Positions 1-64,000 of a DNA stretch of 64,000 bases are shown piece after piece. This DNA is from Mobula birostris (Eukaryota). Each line of letters begins with the position of its first letter. Position 1 is the first letter of the stretch. The notes below the pieces were generated by a model. It did no database searches, was not told the origin of the DNA, and saw nothing but the letters and a program-made list of their open reading frames with translations. The position numbers and the translations under genes were made by a program. The stretch lies in contig NC_092375.1 in the NCBI RefSeq assembly GCF_030028105.1, positions 135,001,035-135,065,034 on the forward strand, given 5' to 3'.

Positions 1-80
1 CTGAGACCCTTCCTGAGTCCTGCTGAGTAGTCTTTTCCACAGATGCTGCCTGGCCTGTTGAGTTCCTCCACCATTTTGTG
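1..80 (+). repeat. Penelope-derived hairpin-repeat fragment
   Basis: gatgctgcctggcctgttgagttcctcca motif shared with many copies in the window. Confidence 0.7.
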
Positions 81-165
81 GGTGGACCCTGGAAATTTGA
101 CTGGTTTTGGAAGATGTGTTTAATTTAGTTTTTTTTTGTTTTTGTGTTCCTTCCACACCCTGTAG

Positions 166-5339: not shown

Positions 5340-5885
5340 AAGCAAGAGATTCTGCAGATGCTGGAAATCTAGAGCAACATACACAAAATGCTGGAGGAAC
5401 TCAGCAGGTCAGACAGCATCTATGGAGTAAAATGGTCAGTCAATGTTTCAGGTTGAAACTCTCCATCTGAACAGAAAGGTAGAGGGGAGAAAGACAGAAT
5501 AAAAAAGAGAAGGGAAGGGGTGGAGCAAGAGTTAGTAAGCAATAAATGAATCCAGGTGAGGAGGGGTGAGAGGCAAATGGAGGAGGGAAGGCTGGAAATA
5601 GTGACAGTGGTTGGAGGTGGGGGCAGCAAAGGGCCAAAGATGGTCAAAGCTTGACAGGAAAGGGAAAGGAGGGGTGGGCTGATAGGAACAGGAAGGGGAG
5701 GGACCCAGACAAAGGATTTACAGATGGAGGAGAGGAAAGAAACGAGGTGATGGGGCAGGATTAGGAGGAGTGACAAAAGGAATAGAGGGGCAGCTGTTAT
5801 CTGAAAATTGAAAATTTGGTGTTCATGCCATTTGGTTCTACACTACCCAGGCAGATTGTGAGGTGCTTTTCCTCCAGTTTCTATG
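5340..5885 (-). mobile_element. Penelope-like element 3' fragment
   Basis: Minus strand encodes KLEEKHLTICLGSVEPNGMNTKFSIFR* (GIY-YIG C-terminus), then a pyrimidine-rich UTR and a decayed hammerhead/terminal repeat. Confidence 0.75.
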
Positions 5886-12485: not shown

Positions 12486-14489
12486 CAGATCAGATTCATT
12501 TATCTCATGTACAGTGAAACAGAGTGAAATGTGTCATTTACAGTAACAACCAACACACCTAAGGAATGTCACCACACATTCCAGTGCCACCATGATGTGC
12601 TCACAATGCTTGGCAGAACAACAACGAGCACATCAAGACAGAACCTGCCAAGCAACAACAGCAAAACAAGTTCCATTCCTGCCACGCACGCACACGCACA
12701 TGCACACAACAGACACCACACTCACTCACTCTAACCCCAGGACAGACGGTCTTCTTCGACCTCCGGCAGACTCGTAGACATTGAGCCCCAATATTCCAAT
12801 GCACTCGCAAAGATTTGCAGACCTAGGCTCCGGCCATCAGGCCTCAGCTGGACCTCCGATCCAGTGCGGAGTTCACAACTAATCTGGAGATTACCATGTG
12901 GGGACAGCAAGACTGAAGGAGGCTGAGAGATTAGCTCAGTAGAGACCTTTAACATTAGCAAGTGTTTAAGTGGACAGAGATGATGGCTCATAAATACTGT
13001 ATAAAAGAAACATCAATAGATCCAACAACTTAGATCTGTGAATAGTGGGATTTTAGGGTAGAGTAATGAGTATGCAGAAAGCAACAGGTGGTGATGCTCC
13101 CCACTGAGGCTGTTTAACCTGGTGTGGCCATCAAGCTTTTTCTGTTTTTGTCTGAGATGGTGATCCTGATGAGTTGTACTGTATAGAGTGTGACAACAGC
13201 ATAAGGAGTGAGCTAAAAAGCCTGTTCTATGCCCAACAGATTCTTTGTGTTATTGGATCTACAGTTTCTTTGCTTTACAAGTTCTTTGTATTACTCCGTG
13301 ACCTCCTGATTGTGGTGAATTAAGGAGAGTGTGGTCCTTCCCAGTACTTATGCCCAGTTCCTGCCCTGCCATAGAAAATTGTACAAGTAGTAGTTTCTCA
13401 CTTCTGGATAGGCATCAAGATCCAGCTCACTTTACTCCTTCCCTGACTTTTCCTGGTTTGCAAAAACCAAAAGCACGGACCAGTGGAAAACTGGTGGACA
13501 AGAGGAGCTGGTAGAGGGCAAAAAGGGGAGCTAAGAGAAAAATGAGTATCAAGTGTTGGGTCAAAATGTCTCTAAGAAACTTGGTCTGGTGAGCTGGGGA
13601 AAGGAAGAGAACCAGGAGAAGGAGCTGAACAGATCTCATTCTTGGTGCTAGTTCCAGCTACTTATGTTTAAAGACACAATTAAAAGAAAGGAAGAATAAT
13701 ATTTGCATACAGTATCATCTTTCACAATGTCCCAATTTACTTCACAGGCAACAGAGTATATTTTAAAATGTTGCTATGTTGAAAGCACCTGCAAAGAGTA
13801 TGGGTAACTAGTAAGGAAATCCATTCTTCGTGTTGACGTTTGAGGAATAAACATGGACTAGACATTGAGGAGAATTGCTCCACTGTAATTCATTCCCATG
13901 CAGTTTTCTGTCAATTTACAAACATGTAAAGAATTCACCAAGTAAAGGAAAATGCTGATTCAAAGCAGAGTTTAAAAGAACTGAGACACTTATTGATAGC
14001 TACTGCTGCTCTGTACACTTAGTGTGGTTGCCATTACTTTTACAGCAGGAGGAAGTCTTAGCATTTCCTCACAGGGCTTCAGTAACATTGACTCTTAATA
14101 AGCACAACAAACCAAAATTGTCATTTAAGTCTTTTAGGGACTTGGAGGTAACAATATTGTACTTCCATAACCTGTATGAGACATGAGCTTCTGTTTGCCT
14201 CTATTTCCATGGGAGTCACAGTAAGGGATTTAAATCACTAAAGATTCAAACGCACAATGATACACTGTTTTGGCTTTAATATGCAAATTTACATGTAATT
14301 CAGGTTGCTTCCTGTAATACAGAATACTGTTAACAGGAATTGTTAATAGAGACAGAGATATATGATCAACAGCCTGCAAAATCCAAGTACTTTTTGGTTA
14401 TTGGCACTATGGGGATATAATGCCTGCACCAGATATGCTGAATAATGTAGATAATGTTGGACTTGAATCTTGCTGTCTTTGTCTTGAGA

Positions 14490-16292
14490 AGGTATATTAA
14501 GAGCAAAAGGATTGTAAGGGATAAAATTGGTCCTCTTGAAGATCAGAGTGGTCGGCTATGTACAGAACCAAAGGAAATGGGGGAGATCTTAAGTAGGTTT
14601 TTTGCATCTGTATTTACTAAGGAAACTAGCATGAAGTCTATGGAATTGAGGGAATCAAGTAGTGAGATCATGGAAACTGTACAGATTGAAAAGGAGGAGG
14701 TGCATGCTGTCTTGAGGAAAATTAAAGTGGATAAATCCCCGGGACCTGACAGAGTGTTTCCTCGGACCTTGAAGGAGACTAGTGTTGAAATTGCGGGGGC
14801 CCTGGCAGAAATATTTAAAATGTCACTGTCTGCGGGTGAGGTGCCAGAGGATTGGAAAGTGGTTCATGTTGTTCCGTTGTTTAAAAAAGGATCGAAAAGT
14901 AATCCGGGAAATTATAGGCCGGTGAGTTTAACGTCAGTAGTAGGTAAGTTATTGGAGGGAGTACTAAGAGACAGAATCTACAAGCATTTGGATAGACAGG
15001 GGCTTATTAGGGAGAGTCAACATGGCTTTGTGCGTGGTAGGCCATGTTTGACCAATCTGTTGGAGTTTTTCGAGGAGGTTACCAGGAAAGTGGATGAAGG
15101 GAAGGCAGTGGATATTGTCCACATGGACTTCAGTAAGGCCTTTGACAAGGTCCCGCATGGGAGGTTAGTTAGGAAAATTCAGTCGCTAGGTATACATGGA
15201 GAGGTGGTAAATTGGATTAGACATTGGCTCGATGGAAGAAGCCAGAGAGTGGTGGTAGAGAATTGCTTCTCTGAGTGGAGGCCTGTGACTAGTGGTGTGC
15301 CACAGGGATCAGTGCTGGGTCCATTGTTATTTGTCATCTATATCAATGATCTGGATGATAATGTGGTAAATTGGATCAGCAAGTTTGCTGATGATACAAA
15401 GATTGGAGGTGTAGTAGACAGTGAGGAAGGTTTTCAGAGCCTGCAGAGGGACTTGGACCAGCTGGAAAAATGGGCTGAAAAATGGCAGATGGAGTTTAAT
15501 ACAGACAAGTGTGAGGTATTGCACGTTGGAAGGACAAACCAAGGTAGAACATACAGGGTTAATGGTAAGGCAGTGAGGAGTGCAGTAGAACAGAGGGATC
15601 TGGGAATACAGATACAAAATTCCCTAAAAGTAACGTCACAGGTAGATAGGGTCGTAAAGAGAGCTTTTGGTACATTGGCCTTTATTAATCAAAGTATTGA
15701 GTATAAGAGCTGGAATGTTATGATGAGGTTGTATAAGGCATTGGTGAGGCCAAATCTAGAGTATTGTGTTCAGTTTTGGTCACCAAATTACAGGAAGGAT
15801 ATAAATAAGGTTGAAAGAGTGCAGAGACGGTTTACAAGGATGTTGCCGGGACTTGAGAAACTCAGTTACAGAGAAAGGTTGAATAGGTTAGGACTTTATT
15901 CCCTGGAGCGTAGAAGAATGAGGGGAGATTTGATAGAGGTATATAAAATTATGATGGGTATAGATACAGTGAATGCAAGCAGGCTTTTTCCACTGAGGCA
16001 AGGGGAGAAAAAAAACCAGAGGACATGGGTTAAGGGTGAGGGGGGAAAAGTTTAAAGGGAACATTAGGAGGGGCTTCTTCACACAGAGAGTGGTGGGAGT
16101 ATGGAATGAGCTGCCAGATGAGTGGTAAATGCAGGATCTTTTTTAACATTTAAGAATAAATTGGACAGATACATGGATGGGAGGCGTATGGAGGGATATG
16201 GTCCGTGTACAGGTCAGTGGGACTAGACAGAAAATGGTTCGGCACAGCCAAGGACCAAAAGGCCTGTTTCTGTGCTGTAGTTTCTATGGTTT
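14490..16292 (+). mobile_element. 5'-truncated young CR1 LINE with ~510 open codons of ORF2 (RT)
   Basis: ORF 14454-16055 contains [33 protein letters not shown] and KFADDTK. Frameshift at the A-run near 16010; ttctatgg tail. Confidence 0.95.
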
Positions 16293-28376: not shown

Positions 28377-28438
<62 letters not shown>

Positions 28439-28480
28439 TGTATTGCTTTGGATTTCAAGCATCTGCAGACTTTTGCATGT
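28180..28480 (+). mobile_element. Penelope-derived 3' fragment with decayed hammerhead
   Basis: cagtcttgatgaagggtcttggcccaaaacatcaactg followed by the common terminal repeat. Confidence 0.75.
28379..28428. repeat. (TG)25 microsatellite
   Basis: Perfect dinucleotide run, expanded from the tgtgtgt within the host repeat. Confidence 0.97.
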
Positions 28481-34584: not shown

Positions 34585-34882
34585 AACAAAGCCTCAAGAT
34601 TTGGGGGAGTAAATTTAGGACGGAAATGAGGAGGAACTACTTTCCCCAAAGAGTGGTGAATCTGTGGAATTCTCTGCCCAATGAAGCAGTGGAGGCTACC
34701 TCAGTAAATACATTTAAGACAAGGTTGGATAGGTGTTTGCATAGCAACGGAATTAAGGGTTATTGGGAAAAGGCAGGTAGGTGGAGATGAGTTCATGGTC
34801 AGATCAGCCGTGATCTTATTCAATGGCAGAGCAGGCTCAACAGGCCAGATGGCCTACTCCTGCTCCTATTTCTTATGTTCTT
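34585..34882 (+). mobile_element. CR1 3' end inserted into a hairpin repeat
   Basis: MRRNYFPQRVVNLWNSLP...KGY and ttcttatg tail. Flanked by the two arms of a Penelope-derived repeat. Confidence 0.8.
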
Positions 34883-35100
34883 ATGAAGGATCTCAGCCTG
34901 AAATGTCAAATGCTCCTTCACTCTGTTGATGCTGCTTTACTTGCTGACTTCCTCCAGCATTTTGGATGCATGCTTCACTATTCCACTATTACCTGTGCCA
35001 CAGGAGCAGATTGCCTTCATATGGGAAGGCAGGCAGTACATCGTCACCAGATTGCCTCAGGGGTACGTGCACAGCCCATATCACAGGCTGAGAGCGCACA

Positions 35101-42976: not shown

Positions 42977-45900
42977 CCTTCTTCTTGGACCCTTAGCTCT
43001 CACTGGAGCATAGACCATCAACGACCTCCCACCTCCATCGTCCTCTGTTCTGAGCCAGTTTCTCAAGGGTGGACCAGGAGTATCCCCATTGTCTAATTTC
43101 AGCCTCGGCGTCTTTCCTCCATGTGTTCTTTGGACATCCCTTTTCCCTCTGTCCTCTTTCCTGTCTGGTGATGTTGATTGACTTCCTCAAGGTGTGGCCA
43201 GTCCATCTCCATTTCCATTTGTGTATTTGTATGTCTATGGACTCCTGGTTGGTGTTCTCCCACAGTGTCTGGGTGGTTAATGTGTCAGTCCATCAGATGT
43301 TTAGGATCCTTCTCGGGCACTGGTTGATGAAAGCCTGCGGTTTTTGTAATTGCTTCTTTGTTGTTCTCCTGATTTCAGAGCCGTATAGGAATGCTGCTTT
43401 AACATTGGAGTGGAAGATTCTGATTTTGTTTTTCCTTGATATGGATGGCCACACATTCTCAAGATGTAGAATGCTACTTCGACCTTGTTGATCCTGGCTT
43501 TGACATTCTCATCTGTCCCACTATATACACCTACAATGCTTCCAAGATAGACAAAGGAAGTCACTTCTTCCAGGGTTGTATCTCTCATCACTATGGATCT
43601 TTTGCTGGTGCAATTGATCTTCATCACTTTTGTTTTATCTGCATTTGGTCTTAGACCTAGCATGGTGGAGTTAGCAGTCAAGAGTGTTGATTTTACTTGC
43701 ATCTGTTGGTTAGAGCTAGACAGTAGGGCGATGTCACCTGCAAACTCTAGATCATCAAGTTGCCACCACATAATCTGCTGGATTCCATTTCCTTTCTCAT
43801 TTGTTGCCTGTTTCATAATCCAATCCATTGCCAACAGGAACTGGAAAGGAGCCATCAAGCATCCTTGCTTCACCCCAATGTTGACAGTGAAGCTTGCTGA
43901 CAGTTTTCATGTAAGTATGACTTTGCATGAGATGTTGTAGGAGTTCCTGATGATATTGATAAATTTCTGTGGTATTCTATAATGTTCATAAGTTTCCATA
44001 GGGAGTTTCTGTCTAAACCATCAAAGGCTTTCTCACGGTCAATGAAGTTGATTAGAGAGAAGTATTCCATTCAATTGACTGGTCTATGATTATTCTTAAG
44101 GTAGCTCTTGATCCGTGCAGGAGCGATCTTTCCTAAAGCCTGCTCGTTGGTCCCTTAATGTTGTGTCAACAGCTTGTTGAAGGTGATGCAGAATAATTCT
44201 ATTTAGCACCTTTCCAACCACAGATGTTAAGGATATAACTCTGTAGTTTTTACAGTCTCAAAGGTTACCTTTCTTTGGAAACTTGATTAGGTGGCTTTCT
44301 TTCCTCTCTTGTGACGTCTCTTCTTTGCCCCAGATGTTGCAGGACAAAGTGTATAGGACATCAGCCAAAAGCTTAGGGTCTACCTTCAATGCCCCTGGTG
44401 GTACGCTGTCTGGGCCAGCTGCTTTTCCTGACTTTAGCCTCTTGATTGCCTGTATCATTTCCTTCTTTGAAGGACGCCACAGTTGACAGCCAAGTTTGAT
44501 AGTGCTTCTGGAATTAGAGGAGATTCTGGAGGAGGTAGTCTGTTCAGAATCTCACTGAAGTACTGTGTTCAGCGTTGGAGCTGTTTCTCTTCTTTAGTTA
44601 GGATATTTCCATCTTTATCCTTCACTTGGGTATTGATCTGGTTGAATTTGCCAACAAGTTTCTTGGTAGTATTGTACAGTTCTTACATATTCCCTCTTGC
44701 TGAGGTTTCTTCTGCTTGGGATGCAAGGGTGCTGATGTACTCTCTCCTGTTCACCTTGATATTTCTCCTTCCTTCCATGTCCACTCTGTCATACTCCCTC
44801 TGTGCCTCAATTTTCTCATTCCTAGTTCTGCTATTCCCTTGTCTTTTAATGCTCTCCTCTTCTTGATTGTTTCCATTGTTCCTGGTGCAATCCACTCCAG
44901 GATTACACCAACTACTCAAAAGTCCTTTTTCCCCAGCACTTCCTCACAAGCTTCATTTATTGCTTCCTTGACAGCAGACCATTTGTCTTCAATATCAAAG
45001 TCCTCAAGTGGAACCTGTTGGAAAGTGTGAGGGAAAATCTCTGAGCTGTTTCTTTGTCTTTCAGATAGCTCACATCATACTTCAGTCACTGATTGTGTGC
45101 TATGTAGCTTCTCTTTAGCTTCTTCTGTACTTTGGCAATCTGAGGATGGTGGTTTGACCTGGCACCTGCACCACGTTTCACTCTCACATCATGGAGTGAA
45201 TTTCAAAACTTCTTTGGGATACATACATGGGTAATCTGGTTTTCTGTAACCTTGTTTGGTGACATTCACGTTGCCTTGTGTATTGACTTGTGTGGGAATA
45301 AGCTTCCACCAATAACTAGCTTGAAGTTAGCTCAAGTTTCAGCAAATCGTTCCCCATTTTTGTTCATTTCTCTGAGATTGTGTCCCCATCACCTGGTCAT
45401 GTCCCGCATTACCCCTGCCTATTTTGGCATTAAAATCTCTCATAACAAAGATCATTTTCCTTCTCTCTGCTGATGACTGCACTGAATGTGATGTAAAGTT
45501 CATCTTTATCTTCTTCATTAGTGTCATTTGTTGGTGTGTAACATTGGATAACTTAAGCTATTATCTTCTTGTGCTTGGTTTTAAAGCTAGCAGTGATGAA
45601 TCTGGAACTTGTGGCTTCCCATGTGATCTTGGCTTGACATGCTTCTGGTGTCACCCTGAAAGCTACTCCCTCTGTATATGGGGCACCAATACTCTGATGG
45701 CCTGAGTAGATGATAGTTATCCCATCTGTCAGTTGAGTCTCTCCAGTTGATCTCCATCTCATTTGCTATGACTGTGGATTTTCCTGCCTGATACATGGTT
45801 CTCGCATTCCAGGTATCCAAGGTAGATATGGACTTTGGTGACAGAAGTGTTGTCCACTGTGCAGGATCCTGATGACTTTCCCTGCACTGTGTCATATGCT

Positions 45901-51851: not shown

Positions 51852-52087
51852 CAAGCAAGAGAAAATCTGCAGATGCTGGAAATCCAAGCAACACACACAA
51901 AATGCTGGAGGAACTCAGCAGGCCAGGCAGCATCCATGGAAGAGAATACAGTCAACGTTTTGGGCCGAGACCCCTCATCAGCAGCACGACCTGTTAAAGT
52001 CCTGCCAAAGGGTCTCGGCCCGAAACGTCAAGTGCACTCTTTTCCAATAATGCTGCCTGGCCTGCTGAGTTCCTCCAGCATTGTGTG
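51852..52087. mobile_element. Palindromic Penelope-derived element with hammerhead motifs on both arms
   Basis: Inverted arms; hammerhead-like motifs at 51949-51981 (-) and 51998-52033 (+). TSD-like 14-mer tgaaggctgcagca / tgaagactgcaaca. Confidence 0.8.
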
Positions 52088-52711
52088 TGAAGACTGCAAC
52101 AGTTCAAGGCAGCAGCTCGAAACTACCTTCTCAAGTGCAGCGAGGGATGGACGCAGCCTCTGATGCCCACGTCCCTTGGATAAATATAATGGAGATGTTT
52201 GTATCCAGAGGGCATAGGGTAAAGGGTTAGAGGTTTAGAGGGGATTTGAGGGAGTACTCTTTCACCACGAGGGTGTCTGGAATGTGGAATACACCGCCTG
52301 AGAAGGCGGTAGAGGAAAAGACTCTCATTGTATTTATAAAATATCTAAACAAGCACTTGGATCTCCAAGACTCTGGGCCAAGTGGTAGTAAATGGGATAA
52401 ATCAGCACACAGACCCTGTCCTGCTGTGACCCTGAGGGCAAACAGGACCAGCTTAGATTGGCATCTTGGTGGGCATTGTTGAGTTGGGCTGAGGGGCCTG
52501 TTTCTGTGCTGTATTAGTCTATGAATATAGAATGGCAATTGATGGTCAGTATGAACATAATGGGCCAAAGGTCCTGTTACTATGGTCTATGATTCTATGC
52601 CTTCGACTCTGATTCAAACCATGTGAAATTTTTCACAAGATGAAGACATGTCTATACAACAGGAACTGACGTGAGCTTCAATAACAAACTACCAGATTGC
52701 TAATATTACCA

Positions 52712-52848
52712 AGAGCCCTGAAGAAGGGTCTTGGTCCAAAATGTCGACTATATTCATTTCCATAGATGCTGCCTGACCTGTTGAGTTCCTCCAGCATTTT
52801 GTGTGTGTTGCTTTGTATTTCCACTATCTGCAGATTTTCTCGTGTTTG
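52712..52848 (+). mobile_element. 137-bp single-arm hammerhead-bearing element with 11-bp TSD
   Basis: taatattacca at 52701-52711 and 52849-52859. The insert begins just before ctgaagaagggtcttggtccaaaatgtc. Confidence 0.8.
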
Positions 52849-52897: not shown

Positions 52898-53114
52898 AGT
52901 GTGCTAATTTTAAACTGTTAGCCAAATACAGTGGTTCCCAAATATTTTCGTATTGCCGACGCCCTTGGCTCCCAGCCCACATCGCCACTCTCCCTTTCTA
53001 ACCTGAAATAAAAACTACGAAGAATTTTGTTACAATGAACAGTTAAAAATAAGAACTGCAAATTCAAAACAGTGACAAATAATTGCAAAGATTATTCCAA
53101 TCTATTTAAAGCTC

Positions 53115-53640
53115 AAAACCCAGAGGATGGGCAAAGGGTATAGTGAGAGGGACAGAGGGAGAAAAAGGAGAGAGAGAAAAAGAATGTGTGTGTATAAATA
53201 AATAATGGATGGGGTACGAGGGGAAGGTGGGGCATTAGCAGAAGTTTGAGAAGTCAATGTTCATGCCATCAGGTTGGAGGCTACCCAGAGGGAATATAAG
53301 GAATATACCCCTTGCCCATCCTCTGGGTTTTTCCCCCCCTCCCCCTTTTCTTTCTCCCTGGGCCTCCTGTCCCATGATCCTCTCATATCCCCTTTGCCAA
53401 TCACCTGTCCAGCTCTTGGCTCCATCCCTCTGCCTCCTGTCTTCTCCTATCATTTTGGATCTCCCCCTCCCCCTCCAACTTTCAAATCTCTTATTAACTC
53501 TTCCTTCAGTTAGTTCTGACGAAGGGTTCCGACCCGAAACGTCGACTGTGCCTCTTCCTAGAGATGCTGCCTGGCCTGCTGTGTTCACCAGCAACTTTGG
53601 TGTGTGTTGCTTGAATTTCCAGCATCTGCAGATTCCTCGT
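53115..53640 (+). mobile_element. Penelope-like 3' fragment with inverted 5' part
   Basis: 53115-53300 on - encodes LIFPLGSLQPDGMNIDFSNFC*. 53304-53640 continues on +. A 28-bp junction sequence is duplicated in inverted orientation. Confidence 0.85.
53512..53547 (+). ncRNA. Minimal type I hammerhead ribozyme motif, intact core
   Basis: AGUU-CUGACGA-A-GGGU(UCCG)ACCC-GAAA-C-GUC-GACU: stem I, conserved CUGANGA and GAAA, stem II, GUC cleavage triplet. Confidence 0.8.
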
Positions 53641-53990
53641 ATCTCCCTGATGTGTCTTTATTGCAGCTCACCCAGGTGAGCACAGTATACTTGAAGATCA
53701 TCTGGTATTCATTCTTTCTCTTTCAACTCAGAGAGGCTCAGAAATTGGAAAAGGTCACAACGGACAATGTTGCACTTAAACAGGGTTAACATGGAAAGAA
53801 ACGTGGAAACAATTGATTTGACTTTGATAAGATTCACATCTTTTCCTTGCAATTGAAGATTAATTTCATTAAACATTGCAAACAATTCTGACAAATAAGC
53901 AATGTCACGACTAATGTTCTTGAGTTGATAACTGAATGAAGCATTCAAGTCTTCAAAGAATTTTATCAGTCTCAAGGAATGCATAAAAGT

Positions 53991-56066
53991 CAGAATCAGA
54001 ATTGGGTTTATTATCACTGGCATGTGATGTGAAATTTGTTAACTTAGCAGTAGCAGTTCAATGCAATACATAATGTAAAAGAAAAATAATAATAAATAAA
54101 TAACAGTATACATATATTGAATAGATTAAAACTCATCAAAAAGCAAAAATAATATATATTAAAAAAGTGAGGTAGAATTCACGAGTTCAATGTCTATTTA
54201 GGAATCGGATGGCAGAGGGGAAGAAGCTGTTCCTGAATCACTGAGTGTGTGCCTTCAGGCTTCTGTACGTCCTGCCTAATGGTAACAGTGAGAAAAGAGC
54301 ATGCCCTGGGTGCTGGAGGTCCTTAATAATGAACACTGCTTTTCTGAGACACTGCTCCCCGAAGGTGTCCTGGGTATTTTGTAGGCTAGTACCCAAGATG
54401 GAGCCAACTAAATTTACAACCCTCCGCAGCTTCTTTCAGTCCTGTGCAGTAGCCCCTCCATACCAGACAGTGATGCAGCCTGTCAGAATACTCTCCACGG
54501 TATGATAGAAGTTTTTGAGTGAATTTGTTGACATGCCAAATCTCTTCCACATCAATATGTTGGGACCAGGTTAGATCCTCAGATCTTGACACCCAGGAAC
54601 TTGAAGCTGCTCACTCTCTCCACTCTGATCCCTCCATGAGGATTGGTAGGTGCTCCTTCGTCTTACCCTTCCTGAAGTCCACAATCAGCTCTTTCGTCTT
54701 ACTGACGTTGAGTGCCAGGTTGTTGCTGCGGCACCATTCCACTAGTTGGCATATCTCACTCCTGTACGCCGACTCGTCACCACCTGAGATTCTACCAACA
54801 ATGGTTATATCATCAGAAAATTTATAGATGGTATTTGAGCTATGTCTAGCTACACAGTCATGGGTATATAGAGAGTAGAGCAGTGGGCTAAGCACACACC
54901 CCTGAGGTGTGCCAGTATTGATCGTCAGCGAGGAGGATATGTTATCACCAATCCGCACAGATTGTGGTCTTCCAGTTAGGAAGTTGAGGATCCAATTGCA
55001 GAGGGAGGTACAGAGGCCCAGGTTCTGTAAATTCTCAATCAGGATTGCGGGAATGATGGTATTAAATGCTGAGCTATAGTCGATGAACAGCATCCTGACA
55101 TAGGTGTTTGTGTTGTCCAGGTGGTCTAAGGCTGTGTGAAGAGCCATTGAAATTGCATCTACCGTTGACTTATTGTGGCATTAGGTAAATTGCAATGGGT
55201 CCAGGTCCTTGCTGAGGCAGGAGTTCAGTCTAGTCATGACCAACATCTCAAAGCATTTCATCACTATCGATGTGAGTGCTACCAAGTAATAGTCCTTAAG
55301 GCAGCTCACATTATTCTTCTTAGGCACTGGTATAATTGTTGCCTTTTAGAAGCAAGTGGGAACTTCTGCCCGCAGCAGTGAGAGGTTGAAAATGTCCTTG
55401 AATATTCTGGCACTAGATTTCAGAGTCTTACCAGATATTCCATCGGGACCTTCTGCCTTGCAAGGGTTCACTCTCTTTAAAGACATCCTAACATCGGCCT
55501 CTGAGACAGAGATCACAGGGTCATCAGGTGCAGCAGGGATCTTCACAGCTGTAGTTATATTCTCCCTTTCAAAGCGGCATAGAAGACATTGAGTTCATCT
55601 GGTAGTGAAGCTGCCATTCATGCCATTGGGTTTCACTTTGGTGGAAGTGATGTCTTGCAAACCCTGCCAGAGTTGTCGTACATACGATGTCACCTCCAAG
55701 CTCATTTGAAATTGTCTCTTCACCCTTGAAATAGCCCTCCGCAAATCATACCTGGTTTTCTGGTACAGACCTGGGTCGCCAGACCTGAATGCCACAGATC
55801 TAGCCTTCAGCAGACGACGTACCTCCTGGTTCATCCACAGCTTTTGGTTTGGAATGTACAGTAAGTCTTTGTAGGCACACACTCATCCACACAGGTTTCA
55901 ATGAAGTCAGTAACAACTGCAGCATAGTCATCCAGGTTCGAAGATGAATCCCTGAATACAGACCAGTCCACCGATTCAAAGTAGTCCTGTAGGCGTTCCT
56001 GTGCTTCCCTTGTCCATACCTTCTTGGTCCTCACTACTGGTGCAGTCTTCAGTCTCTGCCTATATT
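53991..56066 (-). mobile_element. Rex1/Babar LINE, same family as 35101-37407
   Basis: ORF 54611-55147 ([22 protein letters not shown]). Splits the hAT reading GDCLR|HFYAF. Confidence 0.95.
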
Positions 56067-59688: not shown

Positions 59689-62600
59689 CTGTTTGAGTAC
59701 TGTTGGGGGTGTGGGGGGGGCGGCCTACCTGGGGGAAGCAACAGTGCCCATGCCTCTGGCACAGAGTCTGGCCCTGTGGCTCAGAAGGGTAGGGAAAGGA
59801 AGAGGATGGCAGCAGTGATGGGGACTCTATAGTTAGGGGGTCAGACAGGCGATTTTGTGGACGCAGGAAAGAAACACGGATGGTAGTTTGCCTCCCAGGT
59901 GCCAGGGTGCGGGATGTTTCTGATCGCATCCACGATATCTTGAACTGGGAAGGAAAACAGCCAGAGGTCGTGGTACATATCGGTACCAATGACATAGGTA
60001 GAAGAAAGGAAGAGGTTCTGAAAACAGACCACAGGGAGTTAGGACGGAAGTTGAGAAGCAGGACCACAAAGGTAGTAATCTCGAGATTACGGCCTGTGCC
60101 ACGTGACAGTGAGTATAGGAATAGAGTGAGATGGAGGATAAATGTGTGGCTGAGGGATTGGAGCAGGGGGCAGGGATTCAGATTTCTGGATCATTGGGAC
60201 CTCTTTTGGGACAGATGTGACCTGCACAAAAAGGATGGGTTGCACTTGAATCCCAGGAGGTCCAATATCCTGGTGGGGAGGTTTGCTAAGCCTACTGGGG
60301 AGAGTTTAAACTAGAATTGTTGGGGGGTGGGAACCAAACTGAAGTGACGGAGGAAGGGGCGGTTGGCTCACAAATAGAGAAAGCTTGTAGACAGTGTGAG
60401 AAGGAGGATAGGCAGGTGATAGAGAAGGGACGCGCTTAGGCTGACGGTTTGAGACATGTCTATTTTAATGCAAGGAGTATTATGAACAAAGCGGATGAGC
60501 TTAGAGCGTGGATCAGTACTTGGAGCTATGATGTTGTGGCCATTAGAGACTTGGGTGGCTCAGGGGCAGGAATGGTTACTTCGAGTGCCAGGCTTTAGAT
60601 GTTTCAGAAAGGACAGGGAGGGAGGCAAAAGAGGTGGGGGCGTGGCACTGTTGATCAGAGATAGTGTCATGGCTGCAGAAGAGGAGGAAATCATGGAGGG
60701 ATTGTGTACAGAGTCTCTGTGGGTGGAATGTTAGGAACAGGAAGGGGTCAATAACTCTACTGGGTGTTTATTACAGACTACCCAACAGTAACAGGGACAT
60801 AGTGGAGCAGAAAGGGAGACAGATTCTGGAAAGGTGCAATAATAACAGGGTTGTCATAGTGGGAGATTTTAATTTCCCAAATATTGATTGGCATCTCCCT
60901 AGAGCAAGGGGTTTAGCTGGAGTGGAGTTTGTTAGGTGTGTTCAGGAAGGTTTCTTGACACAATATGTAGATAAGCCTACAAGAGGAGAGGCTGTACTTG
61001 ATTTGGTATTGGGAAATGAACCTGGTCAGGTGTCACGTCGCTCAGTGGGAGAGCATTTTGGAGATAGTGATCGCAATTCTATCTCCTTTACAATAGCATT
61101 GGAGAGAGATAGGAACAGACAGTTAGGAAAACATTTAATTTGAGTAAGGAGAAATATGAGGCTATCAGGCAGGAACTTGGAAACATTAATTAGGAACAGA
61201 TATTCTTAGGGAAATGTACGGAAGAAATGTGGCAAATGTTCTTGGGATATTTGTGTGGCGTTCTGCATAGGTACGTTCCAATGAGATGGGGAAAGGATGT
61301 TAGGGTACAGGAACTGTGGTGGATAAAGGCTGCTGTAAATCTAATCAAGAAGAAAAGAAGAGCTTATGAAAGGTTCAAAAAACTAGGTAATGATAGAGAT
61401 CTAGAAGATTATAAGGCTATCAGGAAGAAACTTAAGAATGAAATTAGGAGAGCCAGAAGGGGCCATGAGAAGGCCTTGGCGGACAGAATTAAGGAAAATC
61501 CCAAGTCATTCTACAAGTATGTGAAGAGCAAGAGGATAGGACGTGAGAGAATAGGACTAATCAAGTATGACAGTGGAAAAGTGTGTATGGAACCGGAGGA
61601 GATAGCAGAGGTACTTAATGAATACTTTGCTTCAGTATTCACTACGGAAAAGGATCTTGACAATTGCAGGGATGACTTACAATGGACTGAAAAGCTTGAG
61701 CATGTAGATATTAAGAAAGAGGATGTGCTGGAGGTTTTGGAAAGCATCAAGTTGGATAAATCACCGAGACTGGACGAAATGTACCCCAGACTACTGTGGA
61801 AGGCAAGGGAGGAGATTGCTGAGCCTCTGGCGATGATCTTTGCATCATCAATGGGGATGGGAGAGGTTCCAGAGGATTGGAGGGTTGCAGATGTTGTTCC
61901 TTTATTCAAGAAAGGGAGTAGAGATAGCCCAGGAAATTATAGACCAGTGAGTCTTACCCCAGTGGTTGGTAAGTTGATGGAGAAGATCCTGAGAGGCATG
62001 ATTTACGAACATTTGGAGAGGTATAGTATGATTAGGAATAGTCAGCATGGCTTTGTCAAAGGCAGGTTGTGCCTTACGAGCCTGATGAATTTTTTGAGGA
62101 TGTGACTAAACACATTGATGAAGGTAGACCAGTAGATGTAGTATATATGGATTTCAGCAAGGCATTTGATAAGGTACCCCATGCAAGGTTTATCAAGAAA
62201 GTAAGGAGGCATGGGATACAAAAGGACATTGCTTTGTGTATCCAGAACTGGCTTGCCGCAGAAGAGTGGTTGTAGATGGGTCATATTCTGCATAGAGGTC
62301 GGTGACCAGTGGTGTGCCTCAGGGATCTGTTCTGGGACCCTTACTCTTCTTGATTTTTATAAATGACCTGGATGAGGAAGTGGAGGGAGGGATTAGTAAA
62401 TTTGCTGTTGACACAAAGATTGGGGGTGTTGTGGACAGCGTGGAGGGCTGTCAGAGGTTACAGCGGGACATCGATAGGATGCAAAACTGGGCTAAGAAGT
62501 GGCAGATGGAGTTCAACCCAGATAAGTATGATGTGGTTCATTTTGGTAGGTCAAATATGATGGCAGAATATAGTATTAATGGTAAGACTTTTGGCAGTGT

Positions 62601-63314: not shown

Positions 63315-63403
63315 TACTCAGCTTGCTGAAAGTGGTGTCCCAGAGACACAGGGTGGGGAAGAAGGTATTTGGCCTTTATCAACCAGAGCACTAAGTATAG
63401 GAG

Positions 63404-63645
63404 ACACAAGAAATTCTGCAAATGCTGGAGATCTTGAGAAACCCACACAAAATGCTGGAGGAACTCAGCAGGTCAGGCAGCACCTATGGAGGGAAATGAA
63501 CAGTCTACGTTTCAGGCTGAGACCCTTCATCAGCTCTCTTCCATTCCAGACTGGATGAAGGGTCTCGGCCCAAAATACCAACTGTTCATTTCTCTCCATA
63601 GGTACTACCTGGCCTGCTAAGTTCTTCCAGCAGTCACTGTGTGTT
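63404..63645. mobile_element. Palindromic Penelope-derived element with 16-bp TSD and hammerhead motif
   Basis: TSD gcactaagtataggag / gcactaagcataggag. Minus-strand CUGAUGA-AGGGUCUCAGCCU-GAAA-CGUA at 63501-63533. Confidence 0.85.
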
Positions 63646-64000
63646 GCACTAAGCATAGGAGTTGAGACATTATATTACAGTTGTATAAGCCATTAGCAAG
63701 GCAGCTTCTGGAGTGTCATGTACATGTTATAGAAGAGATACCATTAAGCCGGGAAGAGTGCAAAGAAGATTGATGAGAATGTTCTCAGAATTCGAGGGCC
63801 TGAGTTATAGAGGGAGGTTGGGGCAGGCTGGAATTTTATACCCTGGAGCCTAGGAGACTGAAGAGGCTGGCCTTATAGAGGTGTATAAAACTATAAGGGG
63901 CCTAGATAGGGTGAATGCATACAGTCTTTTTCCCCAAGGAATAGGTTAAGGTGCAAGGGGAGAGATTTAAAAAGGACCATGGGGAAATTTCTTCACGGAG

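What the first reader, a model, noticed from the sequence alone, without database searches (positions are those of the whole stretch)
53512..53547. Intact minimal hammerhead ribozyme downstream of a Penelope GIY-YIG end
Seen: stem I AGUU/GACU, CUGACGA, stem II GGGU-UCCG-ACCC, GAAA, then CGUC. Stem III is reduced to a near-palindromic AACGU. Established: Penelope-like elements carry minimal type I hammerheads that cleave as dimers. Inference: cleavage after C53543. Stem II differs from sibling copies (GGGUCUCGGCCC) yet still pairs, which hints at structural selection.
Basis: partly seen in the sequence, partly recalled or inferred. Interest (0 to 1): 0.7.

Follow-up and report, generated by a model that had tools for sequence, protein, structure and literature searches.

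The report
Penelope-type minimal hammerhead in truncated copy
The motif is a real, well-preserved copy of the small self-cutting "hammerhead" RNA that Penelope-like jumping genes carry at their ends, left in a young truncated insertion; this kind of RNA is already described, and nothing here shows that this copy is being maintained by selection.

Summary
The motif at 53512-53547 (+) is real. It is the only descriptor hit in the window (2 of 300 shuffles give one). It lies in a ~525-bp, 5'-truncated, internally inverted PLE remnant. The last 21 endonuclease codons are on the opposite strand (53238-53300); relatives link them to a Neptune/Nematis-type RT + GIY-YIG protein, and named hits are rays and skates. 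Two of the three stem II differences are loop letters; the third turns U·G into U-A on one side only. The copy also has a rare U·G wobble beside the cut site. Ten window copies show no covariation, and nine siblings decay mostly at CpGs. Likely mechanism: two copies pair through ACGU into a slow, probably protein-assisted double hammerhead. Cleavage was not tested. This scan reported the same kind on other DNA. A new member of a known kind; low interest.

The parts
53511..53515 (+). Stem I, 5' strand (positions 2.5-2.1); U53515 makes a U·G wobble with G53544
   Evidence: Sequence; the family letter at 53515 is C in 94-99.8% of depth in 4 of 4 runs
53516..53522 (+). Catalytic box CUGACGA (C3-A9)
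   Evidence: 0 core departures
53523..53523 (+).
   Evidence: listed as a conserved trait in PMC4209133
53524..53535 (+). Stem II (4 bp, G10.1-C11.1 closing pair) with a 4-nt loop
   Evidence: Pair probabilities 0.85-1.0 in the isolated 38-mer, about 0.05 in context
53536..53539 (+). GAAA box (G12-A15.1)
53539..53542 (+). Self-complementary ACGU: no loop, so stem III can form only between two copies
   Evidence: Sequence; the same C/G/U/C arrangement appears in published min-HHRs such as Acropora, Takifugu and Xenopus
53543..53543 (+). C17; predicted cleavage 3' of this base
   Evidence: Inference from hammerhead numbering; not tested
53544..53548 (+). Stem I, 3' strand (positions 1.1-1.5)
53235..53300 (-). 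Last 21 codons and stop of a PLE GIY-YIG endonuclease
   Evidence: 16 of 20 identical to the C-terminus of P0004; P0004 aligns to the EN of the full-length RT+EN protein P0037
53115..53301 (-). Inverted 5' piece of the insertion (EN end plus about 120 nt of 3' non-coding sequence)
   Evidence: 1379 contigs in X1 run on past 53301 into sequence absent here (table 7)
53304..53640 (+). Forward piece: pyrimidine-rich 3' region, hammerhead, about 95 nt of 3' end including the optional tail
   Evidence: (852 loose ends at 53634 in X1)
53304..53331 (+). 28-nt overlap repeated in inverted form at 53115-53142 (inversion breakpoint)
   Evidence: 27 of 28 identical
5340..5880 (-). Older colinear copy: EN C-terminus, then a decayed hammerhead 332 nt after the stop; shows the native order of the parts
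52714..52845 (+). Nearest same-strand sibling (G12 lost; positions 16-17 and stem I 3' strand intact)
51860..52090 (.). Head-to-head inverted pair of short decayed copies
63400..63650 (.). Second head-to-head inverted pair of short decayed copies

Best explanation
This is the minimal type I hammerhead of the pseudo-LTR of a high-copy Neptune/Nematis-type Penelope-like element, probably in a ray or skate, carried passively in a young, truncated, inverted and non-autonomous insertion. SHOWN: the core, the extra A, stems I and II, the loop-less ACGU, and the link to the endonuclease end. INFERRED from the literature: one copy cannot close stem III, so two copies in a tandem element transcript pair ACGU with ACGU and swap stem I strands. 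Each core then cuts the other copy 3' of C17, slowly and probably only with help from the element's protein. INFERRED for this copy: it looks whole because it is young, not because it is kept by selection. Its own site needs a partner with an intact core, and both same-strand neighbours within 1.5 kb have broken cores. I put cleavage at C53543 in vivo at about 10%, and cleavage of a tandem dimer of the 38-mer in vitro at about 60%.
For: Descriptor hit above chance. It fits the published consensus, and the Acropora Neptune motif has the same layout: CUGACGA+A, 4-bp stem II, GAAA-C/G-U-C. EN link: of 31 profile hits, the 8 fetched carry the same EN tail; P0004 has the CxxC and linker zinc finger, and P0037 is a full RT+EN protein. 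A colinear older copy puts the hammerhead 332 nt after the stop, against 305 nt here. Inverted 5'-truncated pieces and 30-40-bp tails are described PLE traits. High copy number: 78,685 contigs laid in X1 and 143,798 in X5, and up to 13 other matches in 64 kb, two of them weak. Decay in 9 siblings is CpG-driven: 27 of 36 CpG sites lost, 27 of 28 changes are transitions. Non-CpG core divergence (10/81) is not below that of the tail (35/324), Fisher p=0.69. Of the 40 rows shown, 9 positions in the element differ from at least 89% of X1 depth; 2 of the 9 are in the 36-nt motif (0.62 expected, p=0.12), so the motif is not depleted of changes.
Against: No cleavage data. This copy keeps all its motif CpGs (0 of 4 lost, chance 0.004 at the siblings' rate), and both rare changes in the motif keep pairing. 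That is what selection would also give, although the siblings are visibly older and the copy was picked for being intact. No genome was held, so age and covariation rest on 10 window copies and depth-weighted contig letters, with 92 rows not shown and a bias towards contigs resembling the query. Some sibling core mismatches may be 5' boundaries rather than decay. Pfam GIY-YIG scores for P0004, P0022 and P0037 are below the curated cut-off, and the two window peptides alone hit no Pfam family. Nearest-neighbour energies disfavour the active dimer (-11.9 against -28.5 kcal/mol), though such models ignore core tertiary contacts.
Confidence: 0.85

Rival explanations
1. This copy is kept by selection as a working ribozyme in a host transcript.
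For: It is the only copy of 10 with a full core, both stems and all CpGs; its two rare changes keep pairing.
Against: The changes are one-sided transitions, and one of them weakens the pair beside the cut site. No covariation. The motif is not depleted of changes. In context the stem I pair probability is below 0.01 and stem II about 0.05. No partner with an intact core lies nearby on the same strand.
Confidence: 0.05
2. The family motif is a hammerhead by descent, but its job in the element is structural (protein binding, or a stop or pause for reverse transcription) rather than cutting; uncleaved RNA is the template.
For: In the anole PAc element, hammerhead mutants did not change insertion in vitro and no RNA-seq reads began or ended at the site (PMC11167929). 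Here 4 of 13 other matches begin within 4 nt before C3, about 28-32 nt upstream of the cut site, so they were copied from uncleaved RNA.
Against: Small, post hoc count with boundaries taken from local alignment; one copy (window 27+) begins close to the cut site. The catalytic core is kept across 56 published representatives, and PAc does cleave when protein is added. This rival is compatible with the best explanation.
Confidence: 0.25
3. Chance resemblance to a hammerhead within a repeat.
For: No Rfam hit; folding z-score -0.39; the bare core pattern is not enriched.
Against: 2 of 300 shuffles give a descriptor hit. Traits not required by the descriptor (extra base, G10.1-C11.1, palindromic 15.2/16.2) are all present, and the motif lies where PLE hammerheads lie.
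Confidence: 0.03

Closest known systems
Minimal hammerheads (min-HHR) in pseudo-LTRs of metazoan Penelope-like elements (Cervera and De la Pena 2014, PMC4209133)
   Same: Type I; CUGANGA plus one extra base; G10.1-C11.1; GAAA-C/G-U-H without loop 3; short stem I; mostly single motifs in truncated copies, some in opposite-strand pairs; downstream of the EN end. The Acropora digitifera Neptune motif has the same layout with a 4-bp stem II.
   Different: No cartilaginous fish is among the species in Fig. S3. This copy has a U·G at 2.1-1.1. Stem II is at the short end of the published range.
PAc (Poseidon, Anolis carolinensis) hammerhead (Frangieh et al. 2024, PMC11167929)
   Same: A vertebrate PLE pseudo-LTR hammerhead followed by a short 3' part with two alternative ends (tail).
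   Different: Different clade: relatives here carry the linker zinc finger of Neptune/Nematis. PAc was tested (protein-assisted, not needed for insertion in vitro); this one was not.
Non-LTR retrozymes (bioRxiv 10.64898/2026.07.22.740005)
   Same: Type I hammerheads derived from PLE pseudo-LTRs, reported in the one chondrichthyan sampled.
   Different: Defined as tandem repeats with a hammerhead in at least two consecutive units; this copy is single and carries EN sequence.
Canonical type I hammerheads (Rfam hammerhead models; Schistosoma Sm-alpha type)
   Same: Same catalytic core and topology.
   Different: No stem III loop, no evident loop 1-loop 2 contact, and no Rfam match.

Membership tests
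PLE min-HHR | CUGANGA and GAAA core with U16.1-H17 | tested here: met
PLE min-HHR | Unpaired base between positions 9 and 10.1 | tested here: met
   A53523; trait
PLE min-HHR | G10.1-C11.1 pair and a stem II | tested here: met
   G53524-C53535, 4 bp
PLE min-HHR | Palindromic 15.2-16.2, stem III absent or minimal | tested here: met
   ACGU 53539-53542
PLE min-HHR | Short stem I closing the motif (type I) | tested here: met
   4-5 bp, with a wobble at 2.1-1.1 that departs from the family letter
PLE min-HHR | Located in the pseudo-LTR of a PLE, downstream of the EN | tested here: met
   EN tail 305 nt upstream in element order, and 332 nt in a colinear copy; a full element with two pseudo-LTRs was not seen
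PLE min-HHR | Covariation across copies of the family | tested here: inconclusive
   None in 10 mostly decayed window copies; no genome was held for a larger test
PLE min-HHR | Self-cleavage as a dimer | not testable with these tools
   Needs a bench assay; all runs laid were contigs, which cannot show RNA ends
Neptune/Nematis-type EN+ PLE | [quoted passage not shown] | tested here: met
   Met in relatives P0004, P0022 and P0037; only the last 21 codons are in this copy
Neptune/Nematis-type EN+ PLE | Linker zinc finger CX2-5CxxC between RT and EN | tested here: met
   Met in P0004 and P0037 (criterion); not present in the window copy
Neptune/Nematis-type EN+ PLE | Placement in an RT phylogeny | not tested
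   No RT of this family was found in the window; no tree was built
Non-LTR retrozyme | At least two consecutive tandem units, each with a complete hammerhead | tested here: not met
   Single descriptor hit; copies are dispersed or inverted
Rfam hammerhead families | Score at or above the gathering threshold | tested here: not met

The most novel reading that the evidence does not exclude
With about one copy per 5-6 kb, intact and decayed min-HHR copies could pair as mixed double hammerheads in long host transcripts, helped by element protein. An intact core like this one would then cut the still-intact site of a dead neighbour. The sequence allows it: all 12 required pairs between this core and the copy at 52718 are standard or wobble pairs. 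The family would then act as a dispersed, genome-wide RNA-cutting system. Folding argues against it: the arrangement costs about 16 kcal/mol in the 900-nt context, and transcription was not shown.
Probability: 0.04. Interest if true: 0.7.

Novelty: new member of a known kind. Interest (0 to 1): 0.12.

Why it matters
As it stands it adds a probable ray or skate family to a kind of ribozyme described in 2014 across metazoans, including fishes, coelacanth, frog and reptiles. What these hammerheads do for the element is still open, and a very high-copy family with subfamilies of different ages is good material for a genome-wide test of where copies begin and whether active subfamilies covary. This single copy does not answer that. 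If intact copies cut host RNAs through mixed dimers it would matter for RNA turnover in repeat-rich vertebrate genomes, but no evidence for that was found.

Tried and rejected
No whole genome is held for the window, so there was no genome-wide count or covariation test. Rfam: no hammerhead hit in 3 searches; the weak hits come from an inverted pair of copies or chance. Degenerate motif scans found 0 matches in metagenome, viral and prokaryote contigs. A word-indexed protein search with the 44-residue frame found nothing among 3 candidates; Pfam on the two window peptides gave 0 families. Sequencing runs: no RNA holder listed; the one 'RNA?' run laid was flagged as probably DNA and all 4 were contigs, so expression and cleavage ends could not be tested, and no listed piece spans the whole stretch. 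The depth dip over the motif was not used. RNAalifold on 10 copies predicts stem II plus a non-hammerhead helix with 0 two-sided changes. Lünse, Weinberg and Breaker 2016 is not held; only its title was seen, and it may already list this family. Searches pairing Penelope with shark, Chondrichthyes, cartilaginous or stingray listed no paper on this family by title or abstract start; the library lacks most subscription papers, and the bioRxiv supplement naming the one chondrichthyan was not seen. A search on the stem I wobble gave nothing that I read further. Rejected: compensatory evolution in stem II; a tandem retrozyme; the EN end reading in line with the ribozyme; a clear target-site duplication (none seen by eye).

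Full report
Observation. A descriptor needing the core, at least 4 bp of stem II and at least 3 bp of stem I finds this site alone in 64 kb; 2 of 300 dinucleotide shuffles give any hit. The core pattern by itself is not enriched (9 against 6.06), the folding z-score is -0.39, and Rfam reports no hammerhead in three searches. The true self-complementary unit is ACGU (53539-53542), with no loop.

Surroundings. The motif is inside an insertion of about 525 bp in two pieces. 53115-53301 reads on the minus strand and 53304-53640 on the plus strand, and they share a 28-nt overlap (27 of 28 identical). The minus piece holds 21 codons and a stop. A profile of this peptide and its older window copy found 31 proteins at E<=0.001. 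The 8 that I fetched carry the same tail; many are mis-predicted gene models that absorbed the repeat, and 3 or 4 of the 31 look like chance repeats (P0002, P0026, P0029). P0004 continues upstream into a CX2-5CxxC linker and a GIY-YIG region with CxxC (Pfam E=0.0021, below cut-off). P0004 aligns over 169 residues (42% identity) to the C-terminus of P0037, an 893-residue RT + GIY-YIG protein. By the criteria in PMC8557442 this is a Neptune/Nematis-type element; no tree was built. The five clusters looked up are named from Hypanus, Leucoraja and Rhinoraja, so the window is probably from a ray or skate (inference). An older copy at 5340-5880 (-) keeps the native order, with the hammerhead 332 nt after the stop against 305 nt here. 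So 'downstream of the GIY-YIG end' holds in element order, but in the genome the EN end faces the other way. Inverted 5'-truncated pieces and optional 30-40-bp tails are described PLE traits. The geometry also resembles twin priming of LINEs (recalled, not tested).

Copy number. Up to 13 other matches lie in the window, two of them weak; 9 include the hammerhead region. Laying four public runs at 80% likeness placed 78,685, 143,798, 5,785 and 34,453 contigs on 761 bases. This is not a copy number, but it shows a very abundant family in three coded organisms.

The selection claim. Fractions below are my arithmetic on table 3, which shows 40 rows and hides 92, and which favours contigs resembling the query. 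At 53532 the family letter is G in 87-96% of depth, so the family has U·G and this copy U-A: a change on one side. At 53528-53529, both loop positions, the other letters make up 50-59% in X1 and X5, so this loop is probably a common subfamily form. At 53515 the family letter is C in 94-99.8%, so this copy has turned the pair beside the cut site into a wobble. All 56 representatives in Fig. S3 of PMC4209133 have a Watson-Crick pair there (read by eye). Among 10 window copies, stem II has no two-sided change and the covariation score is reached by 454 of 500 shuffles. The nine siblings have lost 27 of 36 CpG sites, with 27 of 28 changes being transitions (the N7 site was left out because it may be a subfamily letter). 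Eight of the nine have a broken core. Non-CpG core divergence (10/81) matches the tail (35/324; p=0.69). Nine shown positions in this element differ from at least 89% of X1 depth, two of them in the motif (0.62 expected; p=0.12). Against my reading: the copy keeps all 4 CpGs (0.004 at the siblings' rate) and both rare changes keep pairing.

How it most likely works. One copy cannot close stem III. In a tandem element transcript, two copies pair ACGU with ACGU and exchange stem I strands, and each core cuts the other copy after C17 (model from PMC4209133 and the review PMC6765202). Published activity is low: a Schistosoma monomer was inactive and dimers were weak. The anole PAc hammerhead cut only with protein added, was not needed for insertion in vitro, and showed no RNA-seq ends at the site. 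For this copy, cleavage at C53543 needs a partner with an intact core, and the two same-strand neighbours (52718, 51998) lack one. The double hammerhead evaluates at -11.9 kcal/mol against -28.5 for the best co-fold, and in its own context stem I has a probability below 0.01; these models omit tertiary contacts. I judge the family motif functional in active elements (inferred) and this copy a passenger (about 85%).

Unexplained. Four of the 13 other matches begin within 4 nt before C3, that is about 28-32 nt upstream of the cut site; one begins near the cut site, and the rest begin further up or down (three of the four reference offsets there are off by 1-4 nt, so I used the finding copy as reference). 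If this holds genome-wide, uncleaved RNA is the template and the folded ribozyme may mark where copying stops. The count is small and post hoc.

Comparison and novelty. It works like, and meets every testable structural feature of, the PLE min-HHR family; cleavage is untested and covariation inconclusive. It is not a tandem retrozyme and not an Rfam hammerhead member. Fig. S3 of the 2014 paper lists no cartilaginous fish, and four searches listed no paper on this family, but the Lünse 2016 survey could not be read. Earlier notes of this scan report the same kind in other genomes, including a shark; I did not check them, and they did not change my reading.

Papers seen. PMC4209133: main text parts 1-2 of 4 and supplement PDF parts 1-2 of 3, machine-extracted. 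PMC11167929: parts 1-2 of 4. bioRxiv 10.64898/2026.07.22.740005: part 1 of 5 and passages; supplements not seen. PMC8557442: introduction and passages. PMC6765202 and PMC6155905: passages. Lünse et al. 2016: title in a reference list only. Hammerhead numbering is standard and recalled.

Verdict. Real, correctly named, known kind; the selection hint is not supported. Interest 0.12.

Noticed in passing
window 51860-52090 and 63400-63650: Two head-to-head inverted pairs of short copies. In each, one arm ends about 30-35 nt further 3' (with the tail) than the other, matching the described one-sided PLE tail.
   Followed up: partly
window 1-100: A probable third inverted pair cut by the window edge: bases 1-17 are the minus-strand start of a hammerhead, and the plus arm begins near the predicted cut site.
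   Followed up: partly
window 51981(-), 51998(+), 52718(+), 63533(-): Four short copies begin within 4 nt before C3, upstream of the predicted cleavage site; the cause is unexplained.
   Followed up: partly
window 34850-34990: A decayed copy sits directly behind what looks like the 3' tail of a CR1-type LINE (tail recognised from recall).
   Followed up: no
window 28380-28440: A (TG)n microsatellite has expanded inside the 3' part of a sibling copy.
   Followed up: no
window 14451-16055 (+), 61194-62105 (+), 54611-55180 (-), 43301-43906 (-), 59793-60314 (+): LINE-type RT fragments (RVT_1; two of the four below cut-off) and a GDSL/SGNH-like ORF1 piece; the window is rich in retroelement debris and no host exon stood out in the ORF list.
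   Followed up: partly
P0003, P0004, P0006, P0014: RefSeq gene models of rays and skates (a GPCR, 'mucin-2', LAMP3 isoforms, ATP synthase subunit c-like) end in this PLE endonuclease tail; either mis-prediction or exonised repeat.
   Followed up: no
window 53026-53110 and 53660-53760: Both flanks of the insertion are themselves a lower-abundance repeat (depth in the thousands); it may be one older element split by the insertion.
   Followed up: no
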